From Candidatus Sysuiplasma jiujiangense (GTDB taxonomy: Archaea > Thermoplasmatota > Thermoplasmata > Sysuiplasmatales > Sysuiplasmataceae), in NCBI GenBank assembly GCA_019721075.1, contig JAHEAD010000014.1, positions 404 to 64,403 of the forward strand: a stretch of DNA of 64,000 nt, given 5' to 3'. The position numbers and the translations under genes were made by a program. How positions within the stretch are numbered: the first letter of the stretch is position 1; each line of letters starts with the position of its first letter. The notes beneath the pieces were generated by a model. The model was not told where the DNA came from. It was given only the letters and a program-made list of their open reading frames with translations, and did not search any database. Positions 6,591-61,871 of the stretch are shown piece after piece.

Positions 6591-6663
6591 TGCTCCCTAT
6601 GGGATTTGAACCCATGTCGCGGGGTCGAAGGCCCCGCATGATTGGCCTCTACACTAAGGGAGC
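6591..6663 (-). tRNA. tRNA-Glu, anticodon UUC (73 nt, no encoded CCA)
   Basis: Minus-strand sequence GCTCCCTTAGTGTAGAGGCCAATCATGCGGGGCCTTCGACCCCGCGACATGGGTTCAAATCCCATAGGGAGCA. It folds with a 7-bp acceptor stem (GCTCCCT/AGGGAGC), a T arm ATGGG-TTCAAAT-CCCAT, and an anticodon arm CGGGG-CCUUCGA-CCCCG. The overall sequence resembles archaeal tRNA-Glu. Confidence 0.85.
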
Positions 6664-6936: not shown

Positions 6937-7040
6937 TTCCCCCTTTGATTCAACAAAGGAATGGAGTTTCCTTTCGACTGCCGGATGCTGGCTGATAACT
7001 CCTGCCATTGTGATGTTAATAATCAGAGGAGGTCAGCCGG

Positions 7041-56989: not shown

Positions 56990-57976
56990 CTATCCTATCA
57001 GCTTCGAAACCGTTCCGCGGCCCGCTATCCTGAGAGAACCGGGTGGTTTCGCATTGAAGATCACTGCGTTCTCGTTCTCGAAGGCCAGCTCCTGGTCTGT
57101 CTCCACCTCGAGTCTTTCGCCAGCCTCTATTATCCTTGCCTGATTGCACTGCAGACCTGTATTTACATGAATGATCTTCCCGGGTGCGAGTTCCTCACGG
57201 TAGTACGGTTCCCTGGCGAACGATATACTCAGCGACCTGGCGGATTCAAAACGCATGTTGTCCGTCAGCACCGTGCCCCGCGGGAGCTGTGAAGGCGACA
57301 GTCCCTTGATAGCAATTCCCACCCTGCTTCCAGCGGCAGCCTCCTTGTGGTCTACGTCAAATATCTGGATAGATCTCACCGAGCCCTCCCTGCCGCCAGG
57401 CATGGCAATGAGCTTGTCATGAATCCTGACTGTGCCGTATTTCACCAGGCCTAGCGCAACCGTCCCGACTCCTTTGACTTCAAATGAATGGTCAACGTCG
57501 ATCCTCCAGTGTTCCGCGTCCGCTTTGCGCTGCGTCTCGAGATTGAGCAGAAATTCCCAAATTCTTTTTCCGGCATCCCCGCCGCTCACAACAGACCATC
57601 CCTGCACCCTGGAACCCATCAGTAACCTGACACGCTCGCCTGTCTGCTCATCGGCCACTATCAGCCCACTTAACCCGAAATTGCCGAGCGCAACGATTTC
57701 CTCGCCCAGCCTGGCGTCTACCGTGTCCGCAAAAATCACGGAAGCATCGGACATGTACAGCGACTGCAGCAGAGGTTGAATCTTTTCGGGATAAGTCTGC
57801 GGTATCACTATGCTTACAGCCAGATCCCCTTCCCTCTTGTCGTAGATAAGGAGGTCGCTCTCAGTTCCCTTCCTGGCTATCCCTGATGCAACCGAGGACA
57901 TCAATTCCACCGACGAACCGATAAACGAAACATTTGCAAACTTCATGACAGCATCGACCTCATTCAGGTTAGGCAC
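56990..57976 (-). CDS. EF-Tu/EF1A-like protein with a degenerate (P-loop-less) G domain and intact beta-barrel domains
   Basis: Domain II-like FEVKGVGTVALGLVKYGTVRIHDKL...GSRVGIAIKG. The N-terminal region has a G-domain-like layout but no GxxxxGK[ST] motif. Confidence 0.6.
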   Translation of the reverse strand: MPNLNEVDAVMKFANVSFIGSSVELMSSVASGIARKGTESDLLIYDKREGDLAVSIVIPQTYPEKIQPLLQSLYMSDASVIFADTVDARLGEEIVALGNFGLSGLIVADEQTGERVRLLMGSRVQGWSVVSGGDAGKRIWEFLLNLETQRKADAEHWRIDVDHSFEVKGVGTVALGLVKYGTVRIHDKLIAMPGGREGSVRSIQIFDVDHKEAAAGSRVGIAIKGLSPSQLPRGTVLTDNMRFESARSLSISFAREPYYREELAPGKIIHVNTGLQCNQARIIEAGERLEVETDQELAFENENAVIFNAKPPGSLRIAGRGTVSKLIG

Positions 57977-58098: not shown

Positions 58099-58812
58099 TC
58101 AACTCTTCGGCTCGTTGCAGTTCGGACAGGAGTGCATGAATGCAGGGAAGGAGGCACCGCACTTCTTGCATTTGACCATGTCGGCATGGTGTTTCGGAGC
58201 CGCGGTTGCAGGCGGAATTGCATAAGGCTGCGATCCGGACTGCGGCTCCTGTGCCCTTGTCTTCTGCACGGCCGGGCGTTCAGAAGCACGGCCGGGCTGC
58301 TTCGTCTCCTGTGGCGCGGTCTCCGCCGTCTCCATTGCACTCTGGGGCATCTGGACACCGGTTGATCTCAGCTTGATTGCAGAAGCAATCAGGAAAACGC
58401 CCGGAAGGACCCCGAATAGTATGGAAAGTATCCCCCAGATTATGGCGCGCTCCTCTGCGGAGGAAAAGTGACCAGTGTCTATGTAGGCTGTGACATGCAG
58501 CTTTATAAATGCAACTTCGAGGATGCACACGAACACCACTGCTATCAGGTATACCGCAGACCATAGATAGGTCGTAGAATAGGAAGCCGCGCCAGGATTG
58601 ACTATTACATATCCGGGGGCGGAAAATTTGAAATAATAATAGAACGAGACGATCGAAAGCACGACAGCTGCGGGTATTTCAATCAGTGCCACTATCTGTG
58701 CCCAGAAGGCATGATTTCTTGCATCACGGGCAGCAGGCGGCAGCCACGGGGGCGTTTCCTCCGACGTGAAAAAGTTGATCTGGGTCAAACCGGTTCCTTC
58801 CGTCAGCCGCAA
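58099..58812 (-). CDS. Membrane protein with C-terminal zinc ribbon
   Basis: Four hydrophobic helices, a low-complexity linker, and C-terminal CKKCGASFPAFMHSCPNC. The start codon is uncertain (TTG at 58812). Confidence 0.5.
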   Translation of the reverse strand: MRLTEGTGLTQINFFTSEETPPWLPPAARDARNHAFWAQIVALIEIPAAVVLSIVSFYYYFKFSAPGYVIVNPGAASYSTTYLWSAVYLIAVVFVCILEVAFIKLHVTAYIDTGHFSSAEERAIIWGILSILFGVLPGVFLIASAIKLRSTGVQMPQSAMETAETAPQETKQPGRASERPAVQKTRAQEPQSGSQPYAIPPATAAPKHHADMVKCKKCGASFPAFMHSCPNCNEPKS

Positions 58813-58916: not shown

Positions 58917-59705
58917 GTGAAGAGAGATTTGTACTCGGAAATTTACTATTCCCTGAGAAGACCTGAGGACATAAGTTTGGCGGCAGAGAAATTTCGTCTG
59001 CCGGAAGAGCTGATGCTCGTGATCTACACTCAGAAGACTGTCAGGTATGCTACGAAAGACTATTACCAGATTGTCGAAATGGCCCCGACGCTACTGAAAC
59101 GGTGGAAAACCGGGGAACCGATGGTAAGAATTGCAAGGCGGCTGAATTTTCCTCCAATCCTTCTGGGTCTCATCCTGATGTCGCAGAACGGTGTCGGCAG
59201 GAAGAAATTCTGGAAAATGGTCAGGAACCCTGAAACGGTCGAAGACAAGCGACTCCGGGCCGAGATGCACGCCATAAGGAAGGCGGACATACTCTATTCG
59301 CCTGAGGGTGCTGAAGTTCAGAAGCAGCGGGGAATAAAAGGCGAGGAGAAACTGGAAAAATGGCTTGCTGAACACAGCATAACCTTCAGGACAGAAAAGG
59401 ATCTGAGGGGGAAGTTTCCCAAGACCCCTGACTTTTTGCTGGATGAACCCATAAACTGCGACGGATACCAGATCAAGTGGATAGATTCCAAGGCTTCCTT
59501 CGGGGACGACATTGAGGTGAGGAAAAACAACAGGAGACAGTTTCACCAGTATGTTTCCCTGTTCGGGAAGGGATTCGTTCTTTACTGGTTCGGCTTCCTT
59601 GACGATATAAAGTCCGATGGGGAAATACTTGTGGGAGATACAAAGATGCTCGACAGGCTGGAGAAATGCCTGGATGAAAAGCAAATGACAGCCGGTGAGA
59701 GCTAA
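58917..59705 (+). CDS. TPD-motif protein, homolog of CDAN1-interacting nuclease 1 (CDIN1/C15orf41): HTH region plus PD-(D/E)XK nuclease
   Basis: C-terminal KFPKTPDFLLDEPINCDGYQIKWIDSKASFGD...GFVLYWFGF closely matches my recollection of the hallmark CDIN1 blocks KTPDF(I/L)L, WIESKASFGD and VIYWYGF. GTG start. Confidence 0.75.
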   Translation: MKRDLYSEIYYSLRRPEDISLAAEKFRLPEELMLVIYTQKTVRYATKDYYQIVEMAPTLLKRWKTGEPMVRIARRLNFPPILLGLILMSQNGVGRKKFWKMVRNPETVEDKRLRAEMHAIRKADILYSPEGAEVQKQRGIKGEEKLEKWLAEHSITFRTEKDLRGKFPKTPDFLLDEPINCDGYQIKWIDSKASFGDDIEVRKNNRRQFHQYVSLFGKGFVLYWFGFLDDIKSDGEILVGDTKMLDRLEKCLDEKQMTAGES

Positions 59706-59746
59706 GTGCAATAATTTTTATCCTCGGCAGCGGGACTGCATGCTAC

Positions 59747-60730
59747 ATGGCGGGTATTACCTTTTCGGCCGGCGATATAGAGAAATTCAGCTACTGTCCG
59801 CTGAGCTGGTGGCTGAGCCGGGATGAGAAAAGTGAATCTGCCCAGACTGCATCGGGGAGCAGGGCACATAAATTGCTGAACGACAGGCTGACGGATATAT
59901 CGTCGAATCAGAAGGAAAGCACAGTATACAGCCGGATGATCATGTATTATGCAGTAATTTCCACTGTTCTGGCTATCGCGGGGCTGTCGGTGGTGCGGTT
60001 CGATCTGAAGTACGAACTTTCCCGCGTTCTGCTCCTTCTTTCCATCATCTGGATCATCATGGCGGTAACAATACTTTACATTAGCAGAAACGACACGCAT
60101 GACAGGAAGAGACAGACAGAGAGAATCGTTTTGTTTCTGGCAGCCCTTTCGATGGTTCTGTCCATACTCTCAGTAACAATCCTGCAGGTGAACACGTTCC
60201 TAGCAATGGTTCTGGAAAGCGCGTCCCTGTTGTGGCTCATAGGGGCATCAAGCTTCCTCTATCTCGATCTCTGGGCCGAAAGGAAGGCGGAGAACATCGA
60301 GAAAAAAATCAACGTAAGCGGAAGGATAATTTACATAGGGGATGACAGACATCCTGTCCTGGTATCAGGGGACGGTACGATTTCCGGGCGCCCCGATTTC
60401 ATCATAGAGAGCGAAGGTGAAATAATGCCTGTGGAATTCAAATCCGGCAGAAGGCCCGCAGGACCGCTTTTCTCCCACATAATGCAGGTATCCGCTTACT
60501 GCAGGCTCGTTGAAGACAACTTCGTAAGGAGACCGGATTACGGTCTAATCTACTACGGGACCAAAAGCTTCGCAGTCGACTTCGACGACGAGGTCGAAAA
60601 GCTGCTGATGAAGAAGGTTGGGGAGATGAGAATTGCTGTGGAAAAAGGGGAGGCTCACAGAAATCACAACAGACCCGGAAAGTGCCTCAGCTGTTCGAGA
60701 AGGGCGGTATGCGACGAACGGCTGGCCTGA
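59747..60730 (+). CDS. Cas4/RecB-like PD-(D/E)XK Fe-S nuclease interrupted by four transmembrane helices
   Basis: Motifs in order: FSYCPLSWW (first Cys), GSRAHKLL, then four hydrophobic helices (residues about 62-166), then GRPDFII, VEFKSG, QVSAYCRL and C-terminal CLSCSRRAVC. Confidence 0.7.
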   Translation: MAGITFSAGDIEKFSYCPLSWWLSRDEKSESAQTASGSRAHKLLNDRLTDISSNQKESTVYSRMIMYYAVISTVLAIAGLSVVRFDLKYELSRVLLLLSIIWIIMAVTILYISRNDTHDRKRQTERIVLFLAALSMVLSILSVTILQVNTFLAMVLESASLLWLIGASSFLYLDLWAERKAENIEKKINVSGRIIYIGDDRHPVLVSGDGTISGRPDFIIESEGEIMPVEFKSGRRPAGPLFSHIMQVSAYCRLVEDNFVRRPDYGLIYYGTKSFAVDFDDEVEKLLMKKVGEMRIAVEKGEAHRNHNRPGKCLSCSRRAVCDERLA

Positions 60731-60733
60731 ATT

Positions 60734-61063
60734 TCACTTTTTTGACATTTCCTCCAGCGACTTCTGTATTTCGGCTATCTGCTCCTTCATCGACAGCATC
60801 TCAATCTCGAAAGGTGTAAACTTGCCGGGACTGAGGAGCCTGTGGGCTATCGTTATGCCGATGAAAATTGCACCGATGACGGCAAGTATGGCTATGGTCA
60901 CCAGAGAAAAAACGAAAAGGTAGAAATTGGCAGCAATGGAGGACACCCTGATGAGTCCCGTGAACTGAAGCATCTCGAATATTACAAGCAGGGATATGAC
61001 CGCAAGCCAGACAACTGTTGTGAACGACAGCTTAGGCAATTTTCCTTCCCTCCATTGAAGCAA
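60734..61063 (-). CDS. Small membrane protein with C-terminal amphipathic/coiled tail
   Basis: Two or three TM helices, then FEIEMLSMKEQIAEIQKSLEEMSKK. The start is uncertain. Confidence 0.4.
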   Translation of the reverse strand: MLQWREGKLPKLSFTTVVWLAVISLLVIFEMLQFTGLIRVSSIAANFYLFVFSLVTIAILAVIGAIFIGITIAHRLLSPGKFTPFEIEMLSMKEQIAEIQKSLEEMSKK

Positions 61064-61523
61064 CGTAAGGCGTCTGGCCCAGTATTATGACATGAACGCC
61101 TCCCTTCGGTACAACGCCGACCAGGGAACTGCCGGAAGCGGACGCATTGACGGTGACAGTTGCATTGAAAAAATACTCCCTGTTCTGAGAAGAGTCCAGC
61201 GCAGCGGAGTTCAGGCTCATATTGACAGTATGCAGCTGCATGCCAAGATAGTATGTATTGCCTTCAATTTCAGAAAAGGTCATGGCTGTTCCGTTCGCCC
61301 CGATATATCTGGCAGAGACCTGGATGGTTCTGTAGAGATACGGGCCGAGGGCTCCATGTATCAGAATCGTGATGTTGCCTTCGTAGTAGGCAAGCAGAAT
61401 CGACGGATATCCAGGGTATGGACTGCCGGTCTTGCCGGTGGTGGAGACTGCCGTATAAACGTTGAGCGAAACGAGTGCCACAACTGCGAGTATAATGAGT
61501 GCATTCCTGATGTTTTTGTTCAT
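61032..61523 (-). CDS. Membrane-anchored extracytoplasmic protein (163 aa)
   Basis: N-terminal anchor ALIILAVVALVSLNV followed by a beta-rich domain with NxS/T sequons. Overlaps the downstream ORF by 32 nt. Confidence 0.45.
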   Translation of the reverse strand: MNKNIRNALIILAVVALVSLNVYTAVSTTGKTGSPYPGYPSILLAYYEGNITILIHGALGPYLYRTIQVSARYIGANGTAMTFSEIEGNTYYLGMQLHTVNMSLNSAALDSSQNREYFFNATVTVNASASGSSLVGVVPKGGVHVIILGQTPYVASMEGRKIA

Positions 61524-61649: not shown

Positions 61650-61871
61650 TCAGAAGTCGAATTCGTCTCCCGAGTTTTCTTCGTATGCGCCGTAAATCCT
61701 GCTGTTCATGAGGGCCGTGGCTTCCGGCGTTCTGGGCTGGAATAAATCGCACTCGTAATGAGGCCCTACATTCTTCTTTTTTGCTATACAATAACCCATA
61801 AGTTCCCCCGGGTTTCCCTCAGGTCTGTGATCCCAGTTTATGCATTTGCGGCACAGGTTGGTTTTTTCCAT
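61650..61871 (-). CDS. Small Cys-containing protein with an acidic tail (73 aa)
   Basis: Contains CRKC...C...C and a C-terminal EENSGDEFDF. No family recognised. Confidence 0.4.
   Translation of the reverse strand: MEKTNLCRKCINWDHRPEGNPGELMGYCIAKKKNVGPHYECDLFQPRTPEATALMNSRIYGAYEENSGDEFDF

What the first reader, a model, noticed from the sequence alone, without database searches (positions are those of the whole stretch)
59747..60730. Cas4-like Fe-S nuclease split by a four-helix membrane insertion, in tandem with the TPD nuclease
All Cas4/DUF83 landmarks are present in order: N-terminal Cys (FSYCPLSWW), GSRAHKLL, GRPDFII, VEFKSG, QVSAYCRL and the C-terminal CLSCSRRAVC triad. Between the first two motifs and the catalytic core, about 105 residues (nt about 59930-60244) form four strongly hydrophobic helices. 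An even number of helices would leave both halves on the same side of the membrane. The N-terminal Cys could then still join the three C-terminal Cys in a 4Fe-4S cluster. This implies a nuclease tethered flat against the membrane. No cas genes or CRISPR array are in the window. The gene starts 41 nt after the TPD nuclease gene on the same strand, so the pair may be a two-nuclease module acting on DNA at the membrane (entry or exit of viral or plasmid DNA, or DNA uptake). I am not aware of a described membrane-inserted Cas4 architecture.
Basis: partly seen in the sequence, partly recalled or inferred. Interest (0 to 1): 0.7.

Follow-up and report, generated by a model that had tools for sequence, protein, structure and literature searches.

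The report
Membrane-embedded Cas4-type nuclease, not CRISPR-linked
This archaeal gene encodes a Cas4-type iron-sulfur nuclease whose two halves are separated by four membrane-spanning helices; it belongs to a large, conserved family that I could not find described, has nothing to do with CRISPR, and usually sits beside the archaeal relative of the human anaemia gene CDIN1.

Summary
ORF 59747-60730 (+, 327 aa) has every Cas4/RecB landmark: C17, G37/H41, D217, E230/K232, Q247/Y251 and C313-x2-C316-x5-C322. A ~122-residue insert (aa 59-180) of four hydrophobic helices interrupts them. Profile and fold searches place both flanks in the Cas4 family.

It is not a one-off. Hundreds of full-length homologues exist across Thermoplasmatota. 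The insert is a tandem duplication of a 2-TM hairpin; relatives carry 1, 2 or 4 hairpins, so the TM count is always even. The positive-inside rule puts both halves in the cytoplasm. In some Methanofollis the gene is split in the hairpin's outer loop into two overlapping ORFs, so the halves must reassemble.

No cas gene, CRISPR array or viral copy was found. The context is conserved housekeeping chromosome, and the gene has its own BRE/TATA-like promoter.

The TPD (CDIN1/C15orf41-family) nuclease gene lies directly upstream in 53/71 species loci. Reciprocally, 69/74 TPD loci have this gene downstream.

Best reading: a housekeeping, cytoplasm-facing, membrane-anchored nuclease that works with TPD. 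Its substrate is unknown; a defence or DNA-entry role is not supported. I found no published description. I rate it a new variant of a known kind.

The parts
59747..60730 (+). Gene for the membrane-integral Cas4-family nuclease (327 aa plus stop)
   Evidence: ORF list. Pfam PDDEXK_1 6e-13 and Cas_Cas4 9.2e-6, both above gathering score. PADLOC Cas4 models down to 5.5e-19. Foldseek top PDB hits are Cas4 8d3q/8d3l.
59747..59917 (+). N-terminal Cas4 piece (aa 1-57). It holds Fe-S ligand C17 (nt 59795-59797) and the metal-site motif G37...H41 (H41 at nt 59867-59869).
   Evidence: C17, G37 and H41 are invariant in 33 sequences. phrog_69 exonuclease matches aa 5-55 alone, E=2.7e-8. It aligns collinearly with the N-termini of 8d3l, 7mi4 and 4r5q. 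pLDDT 78-88.
59921..60094 (+). TM hairpin unit 1 (aa 59-116): TM1 about aa 64-84 and TM2 about aa 93-112, with invariant W102
   Evidence: Hydropathy. Hairpin HMM domain aa 59-116, E=1.1e-22. Outer loop 1 is poor in K+R (0.6).
60110..60286 (+). TM hairpin unit 2 (aa 122-180): TM3 about aa 127-146 and TM4 about aa 150/156-175, with invariant W163 and L164. It is a duplicate of unit 1.
   Evidence: hhalign of unit 1 against unit 2 gives probability 98%, E=2e-14. Hairpin HMM domain aa 122-180, E=3.3e-22. The K/R-rich loop 2 (aa 113-126, K+R 3.7) between the units is cytoplasmic by the positive-inside rule.
60311..60727 (+). C-terminal nuclease core (aa 189-327). It holds D217 (nt 60395-60397), E230 (60434-60436), K232 (60440-60442), Q247/Y251, the family-specific motifs GRxPxGPLFSH and HRNHxRxGKC, and Fe-S ligands C313, C316 and C322 (nt 60683-60712).
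   Evidence: The alignment to SSO0001 (4ic1) covers its GRAD...IEIK catalytic block opposite D217/E230/K232; the SSO0001 residue numbers D99/E113/K115 come from my own knowledge. Invariance. pLDDT 86-96. TIGR00372 cas4 scores 63.4 bits over aa 207-322.
59710..59721 (+). A/T-rich BRE/TATA-like element (AATAATTTTTAT), about 26-37 nt upstream of the ATG; putative own promoter for a leaderless mRNA
   Evidence: Sequence. In 73 homologous loci, positions -37 to -24 are 62-93% A+T, mostly 70% or more, against about 30-55% further upstream. This holds in loci without TPD and in loci where TPD ends 7 nt upstream. Its function as a promoter is inferred and not shown.
58917..59705 (+). TPD / CDIN1 (C15orf41)-family PD-(D/E)XK nuclease gene (262 aa), the conserved upstream partner
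   Evidence: Pfam TPD 2.4e-41. E160, D172 (in TPD), D190 and K192 form the E...D...(D/E)xK signature; E160, D172 and K192 are invariant. NCBI names homologues 'C15orf41 family protein'. It is adjacent in 53/71 species loci, and 69/74 TPD loci have this gene downstream.
58099..58812 (-). Membrane protein with a C-terminal zinc ribbon, divergent from TPD; a possible but unproven associate
   Evidence: Weak Zn-ribbon Pfam hits. A homologue lies upstream on the opposite strand in 50 of 80 species loci, but other genes are sometimes inserted between it and TPD.

Best explanation
The gene encodes an integral-membrane member of the Cas4/RecB-type PD-(D/E)XK nuclease family.

Shown:
- The catalytic and Fe-S-ligand residues are all intact.
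- The fold is interrupted by two tandem copies of a conserved 2-TM helical hairpin, in the connection between the helix carrying the metal-site His and the first core beta-strand.
- The family is large, chromosomal and not CRISPR-associated.
- The gene is tightly linked to the TPD/CDIN1-family nuclease gene.

Inferred, strongly:
- Both nuclease pieces lie in the cytoplasm.
- They reassemble into one domain, with C17 joining C313/C316/C322 as an 'iron staple' across the insert.
- The active site is held a few nanometres from the inner face of the membrane on a two-helix stalk.

Inferred, moderately:
- The enzyme is active.
- It has a housekeeping role and is not a defence gene.
- It cooperates functionally with the TPD nuclease.

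Inferred, weakly (my committed guess at the mechanism): the pair processes nucleic-acid ends at the membrane. TPD removes the RNA strand of RNA:DNA hybrids, as human CDIN1 does in vitro. The Cas4-like enzyme trims the resulting free single-stranded or flap DNA end, as Cas4, Dna2 and MGME1 do.
For: Cas4 identity, C-half:
- Pfam, NCBIfam, PADLOC and PDB profile hits.
- Foldseek top hits are Cas4, MGME1, AdnAB, ACE1 and Dna2.

Cas4 identity, N-half:
- phrog_69 matches aa 5-55, E=2.7e-8. phrog_1706 spans aa 14-324 in one alignment.
- The N-half aligns collinearly with solved Cas4 N-termini.

All catalytic and Cys residues are invariant.

Membrane insertion and topology:
- Hydropathy and four predicted helices.
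- K+R counts are 3.0, 3.7 and 3.9 on the N-flank, loop 2 and C-flank, against 0.6 and 0.5 on loops 1 and 3.
- The insert is a duplicated hairpin. Relatives have 1, 2 or 4 hairpins, an even TM count throughout.

Reassembly of the halves:
- In Methanofollis lineages a 78-aa ORF (N-Cys, GxxxH, TM1) overlaps by 4 nt a 186-aa ORF (TM2 plus core).
- The split recurs in several species and assemblies.

Housekeeping and non-CRISPR:
- Neighbours are MetRS, ABCE1, RNase HII, glmS and NAC.
- Divergence is similar to that of neighbouring RNase HII.
- No cas genes appear in the 14 Pfam-annotated loci.
- No CRISPR-like array lies within +-8 kb in 83 loci.
- No viral copies were found.

TPD link:
- 53/71 and 69/74 adjacency, always on the same strand. 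Gaps are 7-63 nt where measured, and nothing is ever inserted between the two genes.

RNA:DNA-hybrid idea:
- Human CDIN1 cuts only the RNA strand of RNA:DNA hybrids and dsRNA (PMC13463051).
- In Methanofollis the gene directly upstream is RNase HI.
Against: - No experiment exists and no dedicated TM predictor was available. TM4 is only borderline by Kyte-Doolittle.
- pLDDT in the insert is low (45-64).
- The four-Cys geometry could not be measured.
- The gene has its own promoter-like element.
- 18/71 species loci lack TPD next to it and have unrelated upstream genes instead, so the nuclease does not strictly need an adjacent partner.
- The RNase HI pairing is confined to one genus. Other 2-TM relatives have unrelated neighbours.
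- CDIN1 biochemistry comes from the human protein only.
- Nothing explains why such processing should happen at the membrane.
- TIGR00372 scores 63.4 bits, just under its 65-bit equivalog cutoff.
Confidence: 0.55

Rival explanations
1. It is a membrane-located defence or gatekeeper nuclease. Held at the inner face of the membrane, it degrades or processes viral, plasmid or transforming DNA as the DNA enters or leaves the cell, with TPD as a second nuclease.
For: Cas4-family enzymes are typical of defence and mobile elements, and PADLOC Cas4 models match. A membrane position is where foreign DNA first appears. A conserved membrane protein with a Zn ribbon lies nearby.
Against: - The distribution and synteny look like a vertically inherited core gene, not a defence island.
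- There are no viral copies.
- TPD and the other neighbours match no PADLOC model.
- No DNA-translocation ATPase, pilin or channel gene is linked in any annotated locus.
- Human CDIN1 does not cut DNA.
Confidence: 0.15
2. It is a membrane-anchored RNA-processing or RNA-decay enzyme. Together with the TPD RNase it would form an archaeal counterpart of the membrane-tethered bacterial RNases (RNase Y, RNase E), acting on RNA and not on DNA.
For: The partner family's only characterised member is an RNA nuclease. In Methanofollis the gene lies between RNase HI and the tRNA methyltransferase TrmO. Some PD-(D/E)XK enzymes act on RNA (PMC3424549).
Against: All characterised Cas4, Dna2, AddB and MGME1 relatives are DNases, and the best structural matches are DNA enzymes. 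The archaeal solo-Cas4 that has been tested cleaves DNA (PMC12501428). There is no linkage to exosome, aCPSF or RNase J genes in the annotated loci.
Confidence: 0.12
3. It is a true CRISPR adaptation Cas4, as many database records name it, encoded away from its cas operon.
For: Automatic annotations read 'CRISPR-associated exonuclease Cas4'. It scores close to TIGR00372 (63.4 bits against a cutoff of 65).
Against: - No cas gene or array is in the window, in 83 loci at +-8 kb or in the 14 Pfam-annotated contexts.
- The score is below the equivalog cutoff.
- A polytopic membrane anchor is hard to reconcile with docking onto Cas1-Cas2 as seen in 8d3l/7mi4.
- The family carries its own motifs (GRxPxGPLFSH, HRNHxRxGKC).
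Confidence: 0.03
4. The hydrophobic insert is not membrane-spanning. It is a buried soluble four-helix bundle or oligomerisation module, so the protein is a soluble Cas4 with an insertion domain.
For: pLDDT is low in the insert. TM4 is only moderately hydrophobic. No dedicated TM predictor was run. Weak Foldseek similarity of the insert to soluble designed four-helix bundles.
Against: - Four ~20-residue segments are nearly free of charge, and three exceed the classical 1.6 hydropathy threshold.
- The charge distribution obeys the positive-inside rule.
- Hairpins are added or lost only as pairs of helices.
- Split and single-helix relatives each keep one hydrophobic helix as their only extra element.
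Confidence: 0.05

Closest known systems
Cas4 (PF01930/DUF83; e.g. SSO0001 4ic1, Pcal_0546 4r5q, type I-C Cas4 8d3l)
   Same: Same fold and catalytic signature: His helix, D...ExK, QxxxY. Same C-Xn-C-X2-C-X5-C arrangement of four Cys for a 4Fe-4S cluster. These are the best sequence and structure matches.
   Different: The domain is interrupted by a 122-residue, 4-TM insert. It is not encoded with cas1/cas2 or CRISPR arrays. It scores below the TIGR00372 equivalog cutoff. It has family-specific motifs after ExK and before the CxxC. Its conserved partner is TPD and not Cas1.
Solo-Cas4 (Hudaiberdiev et al. 2017, PMC5704561; M. mazei Solo-Cas4, PMC12501428)
   Same: A Cas4-family gene outside CRISPR-cas loci, on an archaeal chromosome. 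The biological role of solo-Cas4 is likewise unknown. The characterised example binds 4Fe-4S and cuts DNA.
   Different: Described solo-Cas4 proteins are treated as soluble. The phylogenomic survey does not mention membrane or transmembrane forms. The M. mazei enzyme is a soluble high-order oligomer.
Dna2 / MGME1 / AddB-AdnAB nuclease domains (iron-staple or arch-type 5'-end-processing nucleases)
   Same: Same superfamily, with significant structural matches (5zyv, 7sjr, 5eaw). In AddB and Dna2 the Fe-S cluster staples an N-terminal Cys to a C-terminal Cys triad across an intervening segment, which is what is proposed here (established knowledge).
   Different: Those are soluble domains fused to helicases or acting in mitochondria. 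None has a transmembrane segment in the stapled loop.
CDIN1 / C15orf41 (Pfam TPD, PF14811): the neighbour, not the finding itself
   Same: The upstream gene is a clear family member with the catalytic E...D...(D/E)xK signature. Archaeal orthologues of the human gene have been noted before (PMC7092493).
   Different: In animals CDIN1 partners with Codanin-1. In archaea its conserved neighbour is this membrane Cas4-like nuclease, a link I did not find reported.
Membrane-tethered nucleases of bacteria (EndA/NucA competence nucleases, RNase Y, mycoplasma MnuA)
   Same: A nuclease restricted to the membrane surface.
   Different: They have unrelated folds. They are anchored by a single N-terminal helix or a lipid, and most face outward. 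None has a catalytic domain split by its anchor.

Membership tests
Cas4 / PD-(D/E)XK Cas4-type nuclease family (PF01930, PF12705) | Scores above the curated Pfam gathering thresholds | tested here: met
   PF12705 scores 49.7 bits (cutoff 22) and PF01930 scores 26.3 bits (cutoff 22.7).
Cas4 / PD-(D/E)XK Cas4-type nuclease family (PF01930, PF12705) | RecB-type catalytic motifs: metal-site His, D, ExK, QxxxY | tested here: met
   H41, D217, K232 and Y251 are invariant. E230 is E or D and Q247 is 32/33. The alignment to 4ic1 covers its catalytic GRAD...IEIK block.
Cas4 / PD-(D/E)XK Cas4-type nuclease family (PF01930, PF12705) | Four Cys (one N-terminal plus C-X2-C-X5-C) able to bind a 4Fe-4S cluster | tested here: inconclusive
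   The four Cys are present with canonical spacing and are invariant. Their 3D convergence and actual cluster binding could not be tested here (no coordinates, no experiment).
Cas4 / PD-(D/E)XK Cas4-type nuclease family (PF01930, PF12705) | Cas4/RecB nuclease fold | tested here: met
   Foldseek top hits are 8d3q and 8d3l Cas4 (E about 7e-6, probability 1.0), then MGME1, AdnAB, ACE1, Dna2 and 4r5q. Model pLDDT is 86-96 in the core.
Cas4 / PD-(D/E)XK Cas4-type nuclease family (PF01930, PF12705) | Metal-dependent DNA exo/endonuclease activity | not testable with these tools
   Requires purified protein.
CRISPR-associated Cas4 (NCBIfam TIGR00372 equivalog; adaptation module) | Reaches the equivalog score cutoff | tested here: not met
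   63.4 bits against a cutoff of 65, and only aa 207-322 match.
CRISPR-associated Cas4 (NCBIfam TIGR00372 equivalog; adaptation module) | Encoded with cas1/cas2 or next to a CRISPR array | tested here: not met
   None in the window. None in the 14 Pfam-annotated loci. No CRISPR-like repeats in 83 loci at +-8 kb.
Solo-Cas4 (operational class of Hudaiberdiev et al. 2017) | Cas4-family protein encoded outside CRISPR-cas loci and outside mobile elements | tested here: met
   Housekeeping chromosomal context. No viral copies.
Integral (polytopic) membrane protein | Hydrophobic segments of TM length with a charge distribution that obeys the positive-inside rule | tested here: met
   Three segments exceed 1.6 on Kyte-Doolittle and a fourth is borderline. 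K+R counts of 3.0/3.7/3.9 against 0.6/0.5 alternate as expected for N-in/C-in.
Integral (polytopic) membrane protein | Prediction by a dedicated topology predictor (TMHMM/DeepTMHMM), or experimental membrane localisation | not testable with these tools
TPD / CDIN1 (C15orf41) family, for the upstream partner | Pfam PF14811 above threshold, with an intact E...D...(D/E)xK active site | tested here: met
   141.3 bits (cutoff 27). E160, D172 and K192 are invariant, and position 190 is D or E.
TPD / CDIN1 (C15orf41) family, for the upstream partner | PD-(D/E)XK fold confirmed by structure comparison | tested here: inconclusive
   Model pLDDT is 94.7, but no PDB match has E<0.08. The weak top hits are all PD-(D/E)XK proteins.
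Known anti-phage defence systems (PADLOC-DB) | The partner or neighbouring genes match a defence-system model | tested here: not met
   Only generic Cas4 and DruK nuclease models hit the Cas4-like protein. TPD and three other neighbours have no hits.

The most novel reading that the evidence does not exclude
The membrane-split Cas4-like nuclease and the archaeal CDIN1 orthologue form an ancient two-enzyme module, conserved across Thermoplasmatota, that clears RNA:DNA hybrid or flap structures from DNA held at the cell membrane. If so, the archaeal pair would give the first native functional context for the CDIN1 family, whose human member causes congenital dyserythropoietic anaemia type I. It would also define a new class of nuclease: a catalytic domain assembled across a transmembrane hairpin by an Fe-S 'staple', able to function even as two separate polypeptides.
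Probability: 0.15. Interest if true: 0.8.

Novelty: new variant of a known kind. Interest (0 to 1): 0.6.

Why it matters
Cas4-family nucleases are regarded as soluble enzymes of CRISPR adaptation, DNA repair and viruses. A large, conserved lineage with the catalytic domain threaded through the membrane is unexpected. It shows that the loop closed by the Fe-S 'staple' can hold 2-8 transmembrane helices, or even a break in the polypeptide.

Hundreds of database entries called 'CRISPR-associated Cas4' in Thermoplasmatota are therefore mis-named.

The near-obligate pairing with the archaeal orthologue of CDIN1 offers a simple prokaryotic system for asking what that nuclease family does. The human gene is a disease gene whose cellular role is still unclear.

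The naturally split Methanofollis version is a ready-made test of reassembly.

Tried and rejected
- CRISPR link: rejected. Rfam and tandem-repeat scans of the window and TRF plus a periodic k-mer scan of 83 loci found no arrays.
- Viral origin: the IMG/VR scan found no relative.
- Literature: five full-text searches and reading the Cas4 phylogenomics paper, the JCVI-syn3.0 Cas4-like paper and the 2012 PD-(D/E)XK survey turned up no description of a transmembrane Cas4. The '+' marks in the survey's Cas4 row are taxonomy columns and not TM flags. Its supplementary architecture figure was not available to me.
- RNase HI as a general alternative partner: tested on further 2-TM relatives and not found outside Methanofollis, so I keep it only as a weak hint.
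- dn109/dn163 as module members: they are adjacent in only 17 of 78 loci. I treat this as lineage-specific synteny.
- Small N-fragment ORF next to the ~175-aa single-TM 'half' forms: none in L088.
- Crude TM counting by hydropathy runs over-counted. I replaced it with a hairpin HMM.
- A single-linkage ORF clustering of neighbourhoods was noisy in high-GC loci and was used only qualitatively.
I redid it with A3.
- The sigma-70 promoter and intrinsic-terminator scan is uninformative for an archaeon.
- The TPD model has no significant PDB neighbour, and a sequence search of the PDB with the TPD profile found nothing.
Full report
**1. Observation**

The ORF at 59747..60730 (+) is real. It starts with ATG and encodes 327 aa. 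The upstream ORF 58917..59705 (+) ends 41 nt before it and is a strong Pfam TPD (PF14811) hit, E=2.4e-41.

Kyte-Doolittle 19-residue windows exceed 1.6 over aa 64-87, 87-115 and 123-156. By my own hand calculation the fourth segment (aa ~150-175) reaches only about 1.2-1.6.

**2. Is it a Cas4-type nuclease on both sides of the insert?**

The C-terminal half:
- It matches Pfam PDDEXK_1 (6e-13) and Cas_Cas4 (9.2e-6), both above their gathering scores.
- It matches several PADLOC Cas4 models, down to 5.5e-19.
- It matches NCBIfam TIGR00372 cas4 at 63.4 bits, just under the 65-bit equivalog cutoff.
- A profile of 33 homologues hits solved Cas4 structures: 8d3l at 2e-7, 4ic1 at 1e-4, plus 7mi4 and 4r5q. 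The alignment to 4ic1 (SSO0001) covers its GRAD...IEIK catalytic block opposite D217/E230/K232. The SSO0001 residue numbers D99/E113/K115 are from my own knowledge.

The short N-terminal piece is supported independently:
- phrog_69 (exonuclease) matches aa 5-55 alone at E=2.7e-8.
- phrog_1706 aligns aa 14-324 in a single stretch that bridges the insert.
- The YC...G...H segment aligns collinearly with the N-termini of 8d3l, 7mi4 and 4r5q.

The AlphaFold2 model built from the 33-sequence alignment has pTM 0.71. pLDDT is 78-88 in the N-piece, 86-96 in the core and 45-64 in the insert. Foldseek's best PDB matches are type I-C Cas4 (8d3q/8d3l, E about 7e-6), MGME1, AdnAB, ACE1, Dna2 and Pcal_0546.

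In the alignment, C17, G37, H41, D217, K232, Y251, C313, C316 and C322 are invariant. E230 is E or D. So the landmarks are real and under selection.

Model coordinates are not exposed by the tools, so I could not measure whether the four Cys converge.

**3. The insert**

The model predicts four long helices: 32-82, 89-115, 118-145 and 150-188. The helix carrying H41 runs straight on into TM1. TM4 continues as a helix that leads into the first core strand. The insertion therefore sits in the connection between the His helix and beta-1. The core hangs on a two-helix stalk and does not lie flat on the bilayer (my reading of the secondary-structure output).

Profile-profile comparison of TM1-TM2 with TM3-TM4 gives 98% probability, E=2e-14, and aligns shared motifs (ER...A...A...; W..GA..LY). 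The caveat is that TM segments inflate such scores. A hairpin HMM finds two units in this protein, aa 59-116 and 122-180, each at E about 1e-22.

Across the family, K+R counts are 3.0 (N-flank), 0.6 (loop 1), 3.7 (loop 2), 0.5 (loop 3) and 3.9 (C-flank). That pattern is what an N-in/C-in topology predicts, with both nuclease pieces in the cytoplasm. This is also where Fe-S clusters are assembled (established knowledge).

The insert is conserved nearly as well as the N-piece: column identity 0.50, against 0.54 for the N-piece and 0.64 for the core. It has its own invariant residues, W102, W163 and L164.

**4. The family**

- The word-indexed search found 707 homologues. All but one (a 187-aa fragment) of the best 120 are ~320-345 aa at 97-100% coverage.
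- The exhaustive profile search over 1.84 billion representatives found 2302 hits: 185 at E<=1e-30 and 935 at E<=1e-10.
- In one-genome-per-species GTDB contigs, 356 stretches encode a relative. Because two peptide patterns were used, this may count some genes twice.
- The 80 best loci are all Thermoplasmatota. They include Ca. Sysuiplasma (closest, 69%), Methanomassiliicoccales, DHVE2/Aciduliprofundum and Ca. Halarchaeoplasma. One record is labelled Aenigmatarchaeota.

Architectural variants exist:
- One hairpin, ~265-285 aa, including Methanofollis formosanus WP_220682637.
- Two hairpins, like the window protein.
- Four hairpins, 516-596 aa.
- A very common ~175-aa form with a single N-terminal helix plus only the C-terminal half.

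Complete proteins always have an even number of helices. This is what is expected if the two pieces must meet on one side of the membrane.

**5. A natural split**

In M. formosanus the 2-TM gene is one ORF. In other Methanofollis lineages it is two ORFs that overlap by 4 nt:
- The 78-aa product is ...FAYCALSW...GMQKH... followed by one hydrophobic helix.
- The 186-aa product begins with the second helix and carries GRPD, EVK, QLAAYC and CRGCSHREVC.

The short C-part recurs in several species and many assemblies (P0287-P0291), so the split is not a sequencing error. The catalytic His and the fourth Cys are then on a different polypeptide from the rest of the site. The two parts must therefore reassemble in the membrane.

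**6. Genomic context**

The window's neighbourhood is housekeeping: MetRS, ABCE1, flavin reductase, a DedA-type protein, RNase HII and NAC. No cas gene appears in any of the 14 Pfam-annotated loci. No CRISPR-like array lies within +-8 kb in 83 loci or in the window. The IMG/VR scan found no copy.

TPD lies directly upstream on the same strand in 53 of 71 species loci that have enough upstream sequence. Seven of these I recovered after correcting over-extended ORF starts.

Starting from TPD instead, 69 of 74 metagenomic TPD loci have this gene directly downstream. In the two exceptions that have full flanks, the gene is simply absent. These were the 80 loci most similar to the query, so the sample leans towards Methanomassiliicoccales-like lineages.

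Genes have been inserted on both outer sides of the pair, but never between the two genes. On one side an extra gene separates the pair from the Zn-ribbon protein. On the other side, glmS and a nucleotidyltransferase intervene.

The 18 loci without TPD (DHVE2 and others) have unrelated upstream genes: DUF2070, an Mrp subunit, POR, a metallophosphoesterase and HAD.

**7. Transcription**

In 73 loci, positions -37 to -24 from the start codon are 62-93% A+T, mostly 70% or more. The sequences look like BRE/TATA elements, for example cAAAgTTTATTGA and TTTTTATCC. The element is present in TPD-less loci and where TPD ends only 7 nt upstream. The window has AATAATTTTTAT at 59710-59721.

With the archaeal TATA box centred about 26 nt upstream of the transcription start (established knowledge), this implies an own promoter and a leaderless or near-leaderless mRNA. 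The adjacency to TPD is thus conserved without an obligate operon. This is inference; no transcript data were available.

**8. The partner**

NCBI names the archaeal proteins 'C15orf41 family protein'. Archaeal orthologues of human C15orf41/CDIN1 have been noted before (PMC7092493). The signature E160...D172 (in TPD)...D/E190-x-K192 is conserved.

The model is very confident (pLDDT 94.7) but has no significant PDB neighbour. The weak top hits are all PD-(D/E)XK proteins.

Human CDIN1 is reported to cut the RNA strand of RNA:DNA hybrids and dsRNA, and not DNA (PMC13463051). In Methanofollis the gene immediately upstream of the Cas4-like gene is RNase HI, another RNA:DNA-hybrid nuclease. That pairing was not seen in three other 2-TM contexts, so it is only a hint.

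**9. Mechanism**

Shown:
- An intact Cas4-type active site and Cys set.
- A conserved, duplicated TM hairpin insert.
- A family that is not linked to CRISPR and has no viral copies.
- Tight linkage to TPD.

Strongly inferred:
- Both halves are cytoplasmic.
- They reassemble into one Fe-S-stapled domain on a short stalk.

Moderately inferred:
- The enzyme is active.
- Its role is housekeeping. The distribution looks vertical, the synteny is conserved, and divergence is comparable with that of neighbouring RNase HII.
- It cooperates with TPD.

Weakly inferred: the substrate is an RNA:DNA hybrid or flap-type end at the membrane. TPD would remove the RNA, and the Cas4-like enzyme would trim the exposed DNA end, by analogy with Dna2/MGME1 plus RNase H. 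Nothing yet explains why this should happen at the membrane.

**10. Comparison and novelty**

The protein is a member of the Cas4/PD-(D/E)XK family by sequence, motifs and fold. It is a solo-Cas4 by context. It fails the tests for a CRISPR adaptation Cas4, namely the equivalog cutoff and the cas/CRISPR neighbourhood.

I found no description of a transmembrane Cas4 in five full-text searches or in the key papers. I cannot exclude a mention in supplementary catalogues or in subscription journals.

I rate it a new variant of a known kind. It is real and widespread, and its architecture is surprising. Its function remains open.

Noticed in passing
L173:2768-3561 and L174:2616-3409 (Methanofollis metagenome contigs): The 2-TM relative of this gene is naturally split into a 78-aa ORF (N-Cys, GxxxH, TM1) and a 186-aa ORF (TM2 plus nuclease core) that overlap by 4 nt. 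The pair is flanked by RNase HI upstream and TrmO downstream. In M. formosanus (L084) the same gene is unsplit.
   Followed up: partly
P0210, P0224 and about 45 other representatives; L088:5001-5528: A very common ~170-180-aa family has one N-terminal hydrophobic helix plus only the C-terminal half of Cas4 (D, ExK, QxxxY, CxxCx5C). It lacks the N-terminal Cys and His, and no partner ORF lies nearby in L088. Some members are bacterial (e.g. Anaerolineae, P0383). How they complete the Fe-S site and the active site is unexplained.
   Followed up: partly
window 58099-58812 (-): A 237-aa membrane protein with a C-terminal zinc ribbon (CKKC...CPNC) lies divergent from the TPD gene. A homologue lies upstream on the opposite strand in 50 of 80 species loci. 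It has no Pfam family above threshold.
   Followed up: partly
window 60734-61063 (-) and 61032-61523 (-): Two small genes are convergent with the Cas4-like gene and overlap each other by 32 nt. One encodes a 109-aa TM plus coiled-coil protein and the other a 163-aa protein with an N-terminal hydrophobic helix. The pair directly follows the Cas4-like gene in 17 of 78 loci, including clades that lack TPD. Neither matches any family.
   Followed up: partly
window 61650-61871 (-): A 73-aa Cys-rich protein (CRKC...C...C) is conserved downstream in 46 loci at variable distance. Its function is unknown.
   Followed up: no
window 6948-7011 (+) and 6591-6663 (-): Rfam finds a fluoride riboswitch (crcB motif, 37.7 bits, gathering score 34) and a nearby tRNA gene in this archaeal window.
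   Followed up: no
window 58917-59705 (+) (TPD protein model mb42e2e2981f9): The archaeal CDIN1-family protein models at pLDDT 94.7 but has no significant structural neighbour in the PDB (best E=0.087). No solved structure of the family was found by sequence search either.
   Followed up: yes
window 56990-57976 (-): A 328-aa protein is annotated only with the EF-Tu domain 2 Pfam family (PF03144) in the matching public contig. It looks like a translation-GTPase-like protein, conserved in the Sysuiplasma-like loci.
   Followed up: no
L086:5386-7791 and L089:5001-7126: The four-hairpin (8-TM) relatives sit next to the ribosomal protein L15e gene in two divergent lineages, in different orientations. 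No nuclease partner is present.
   Followed up: no
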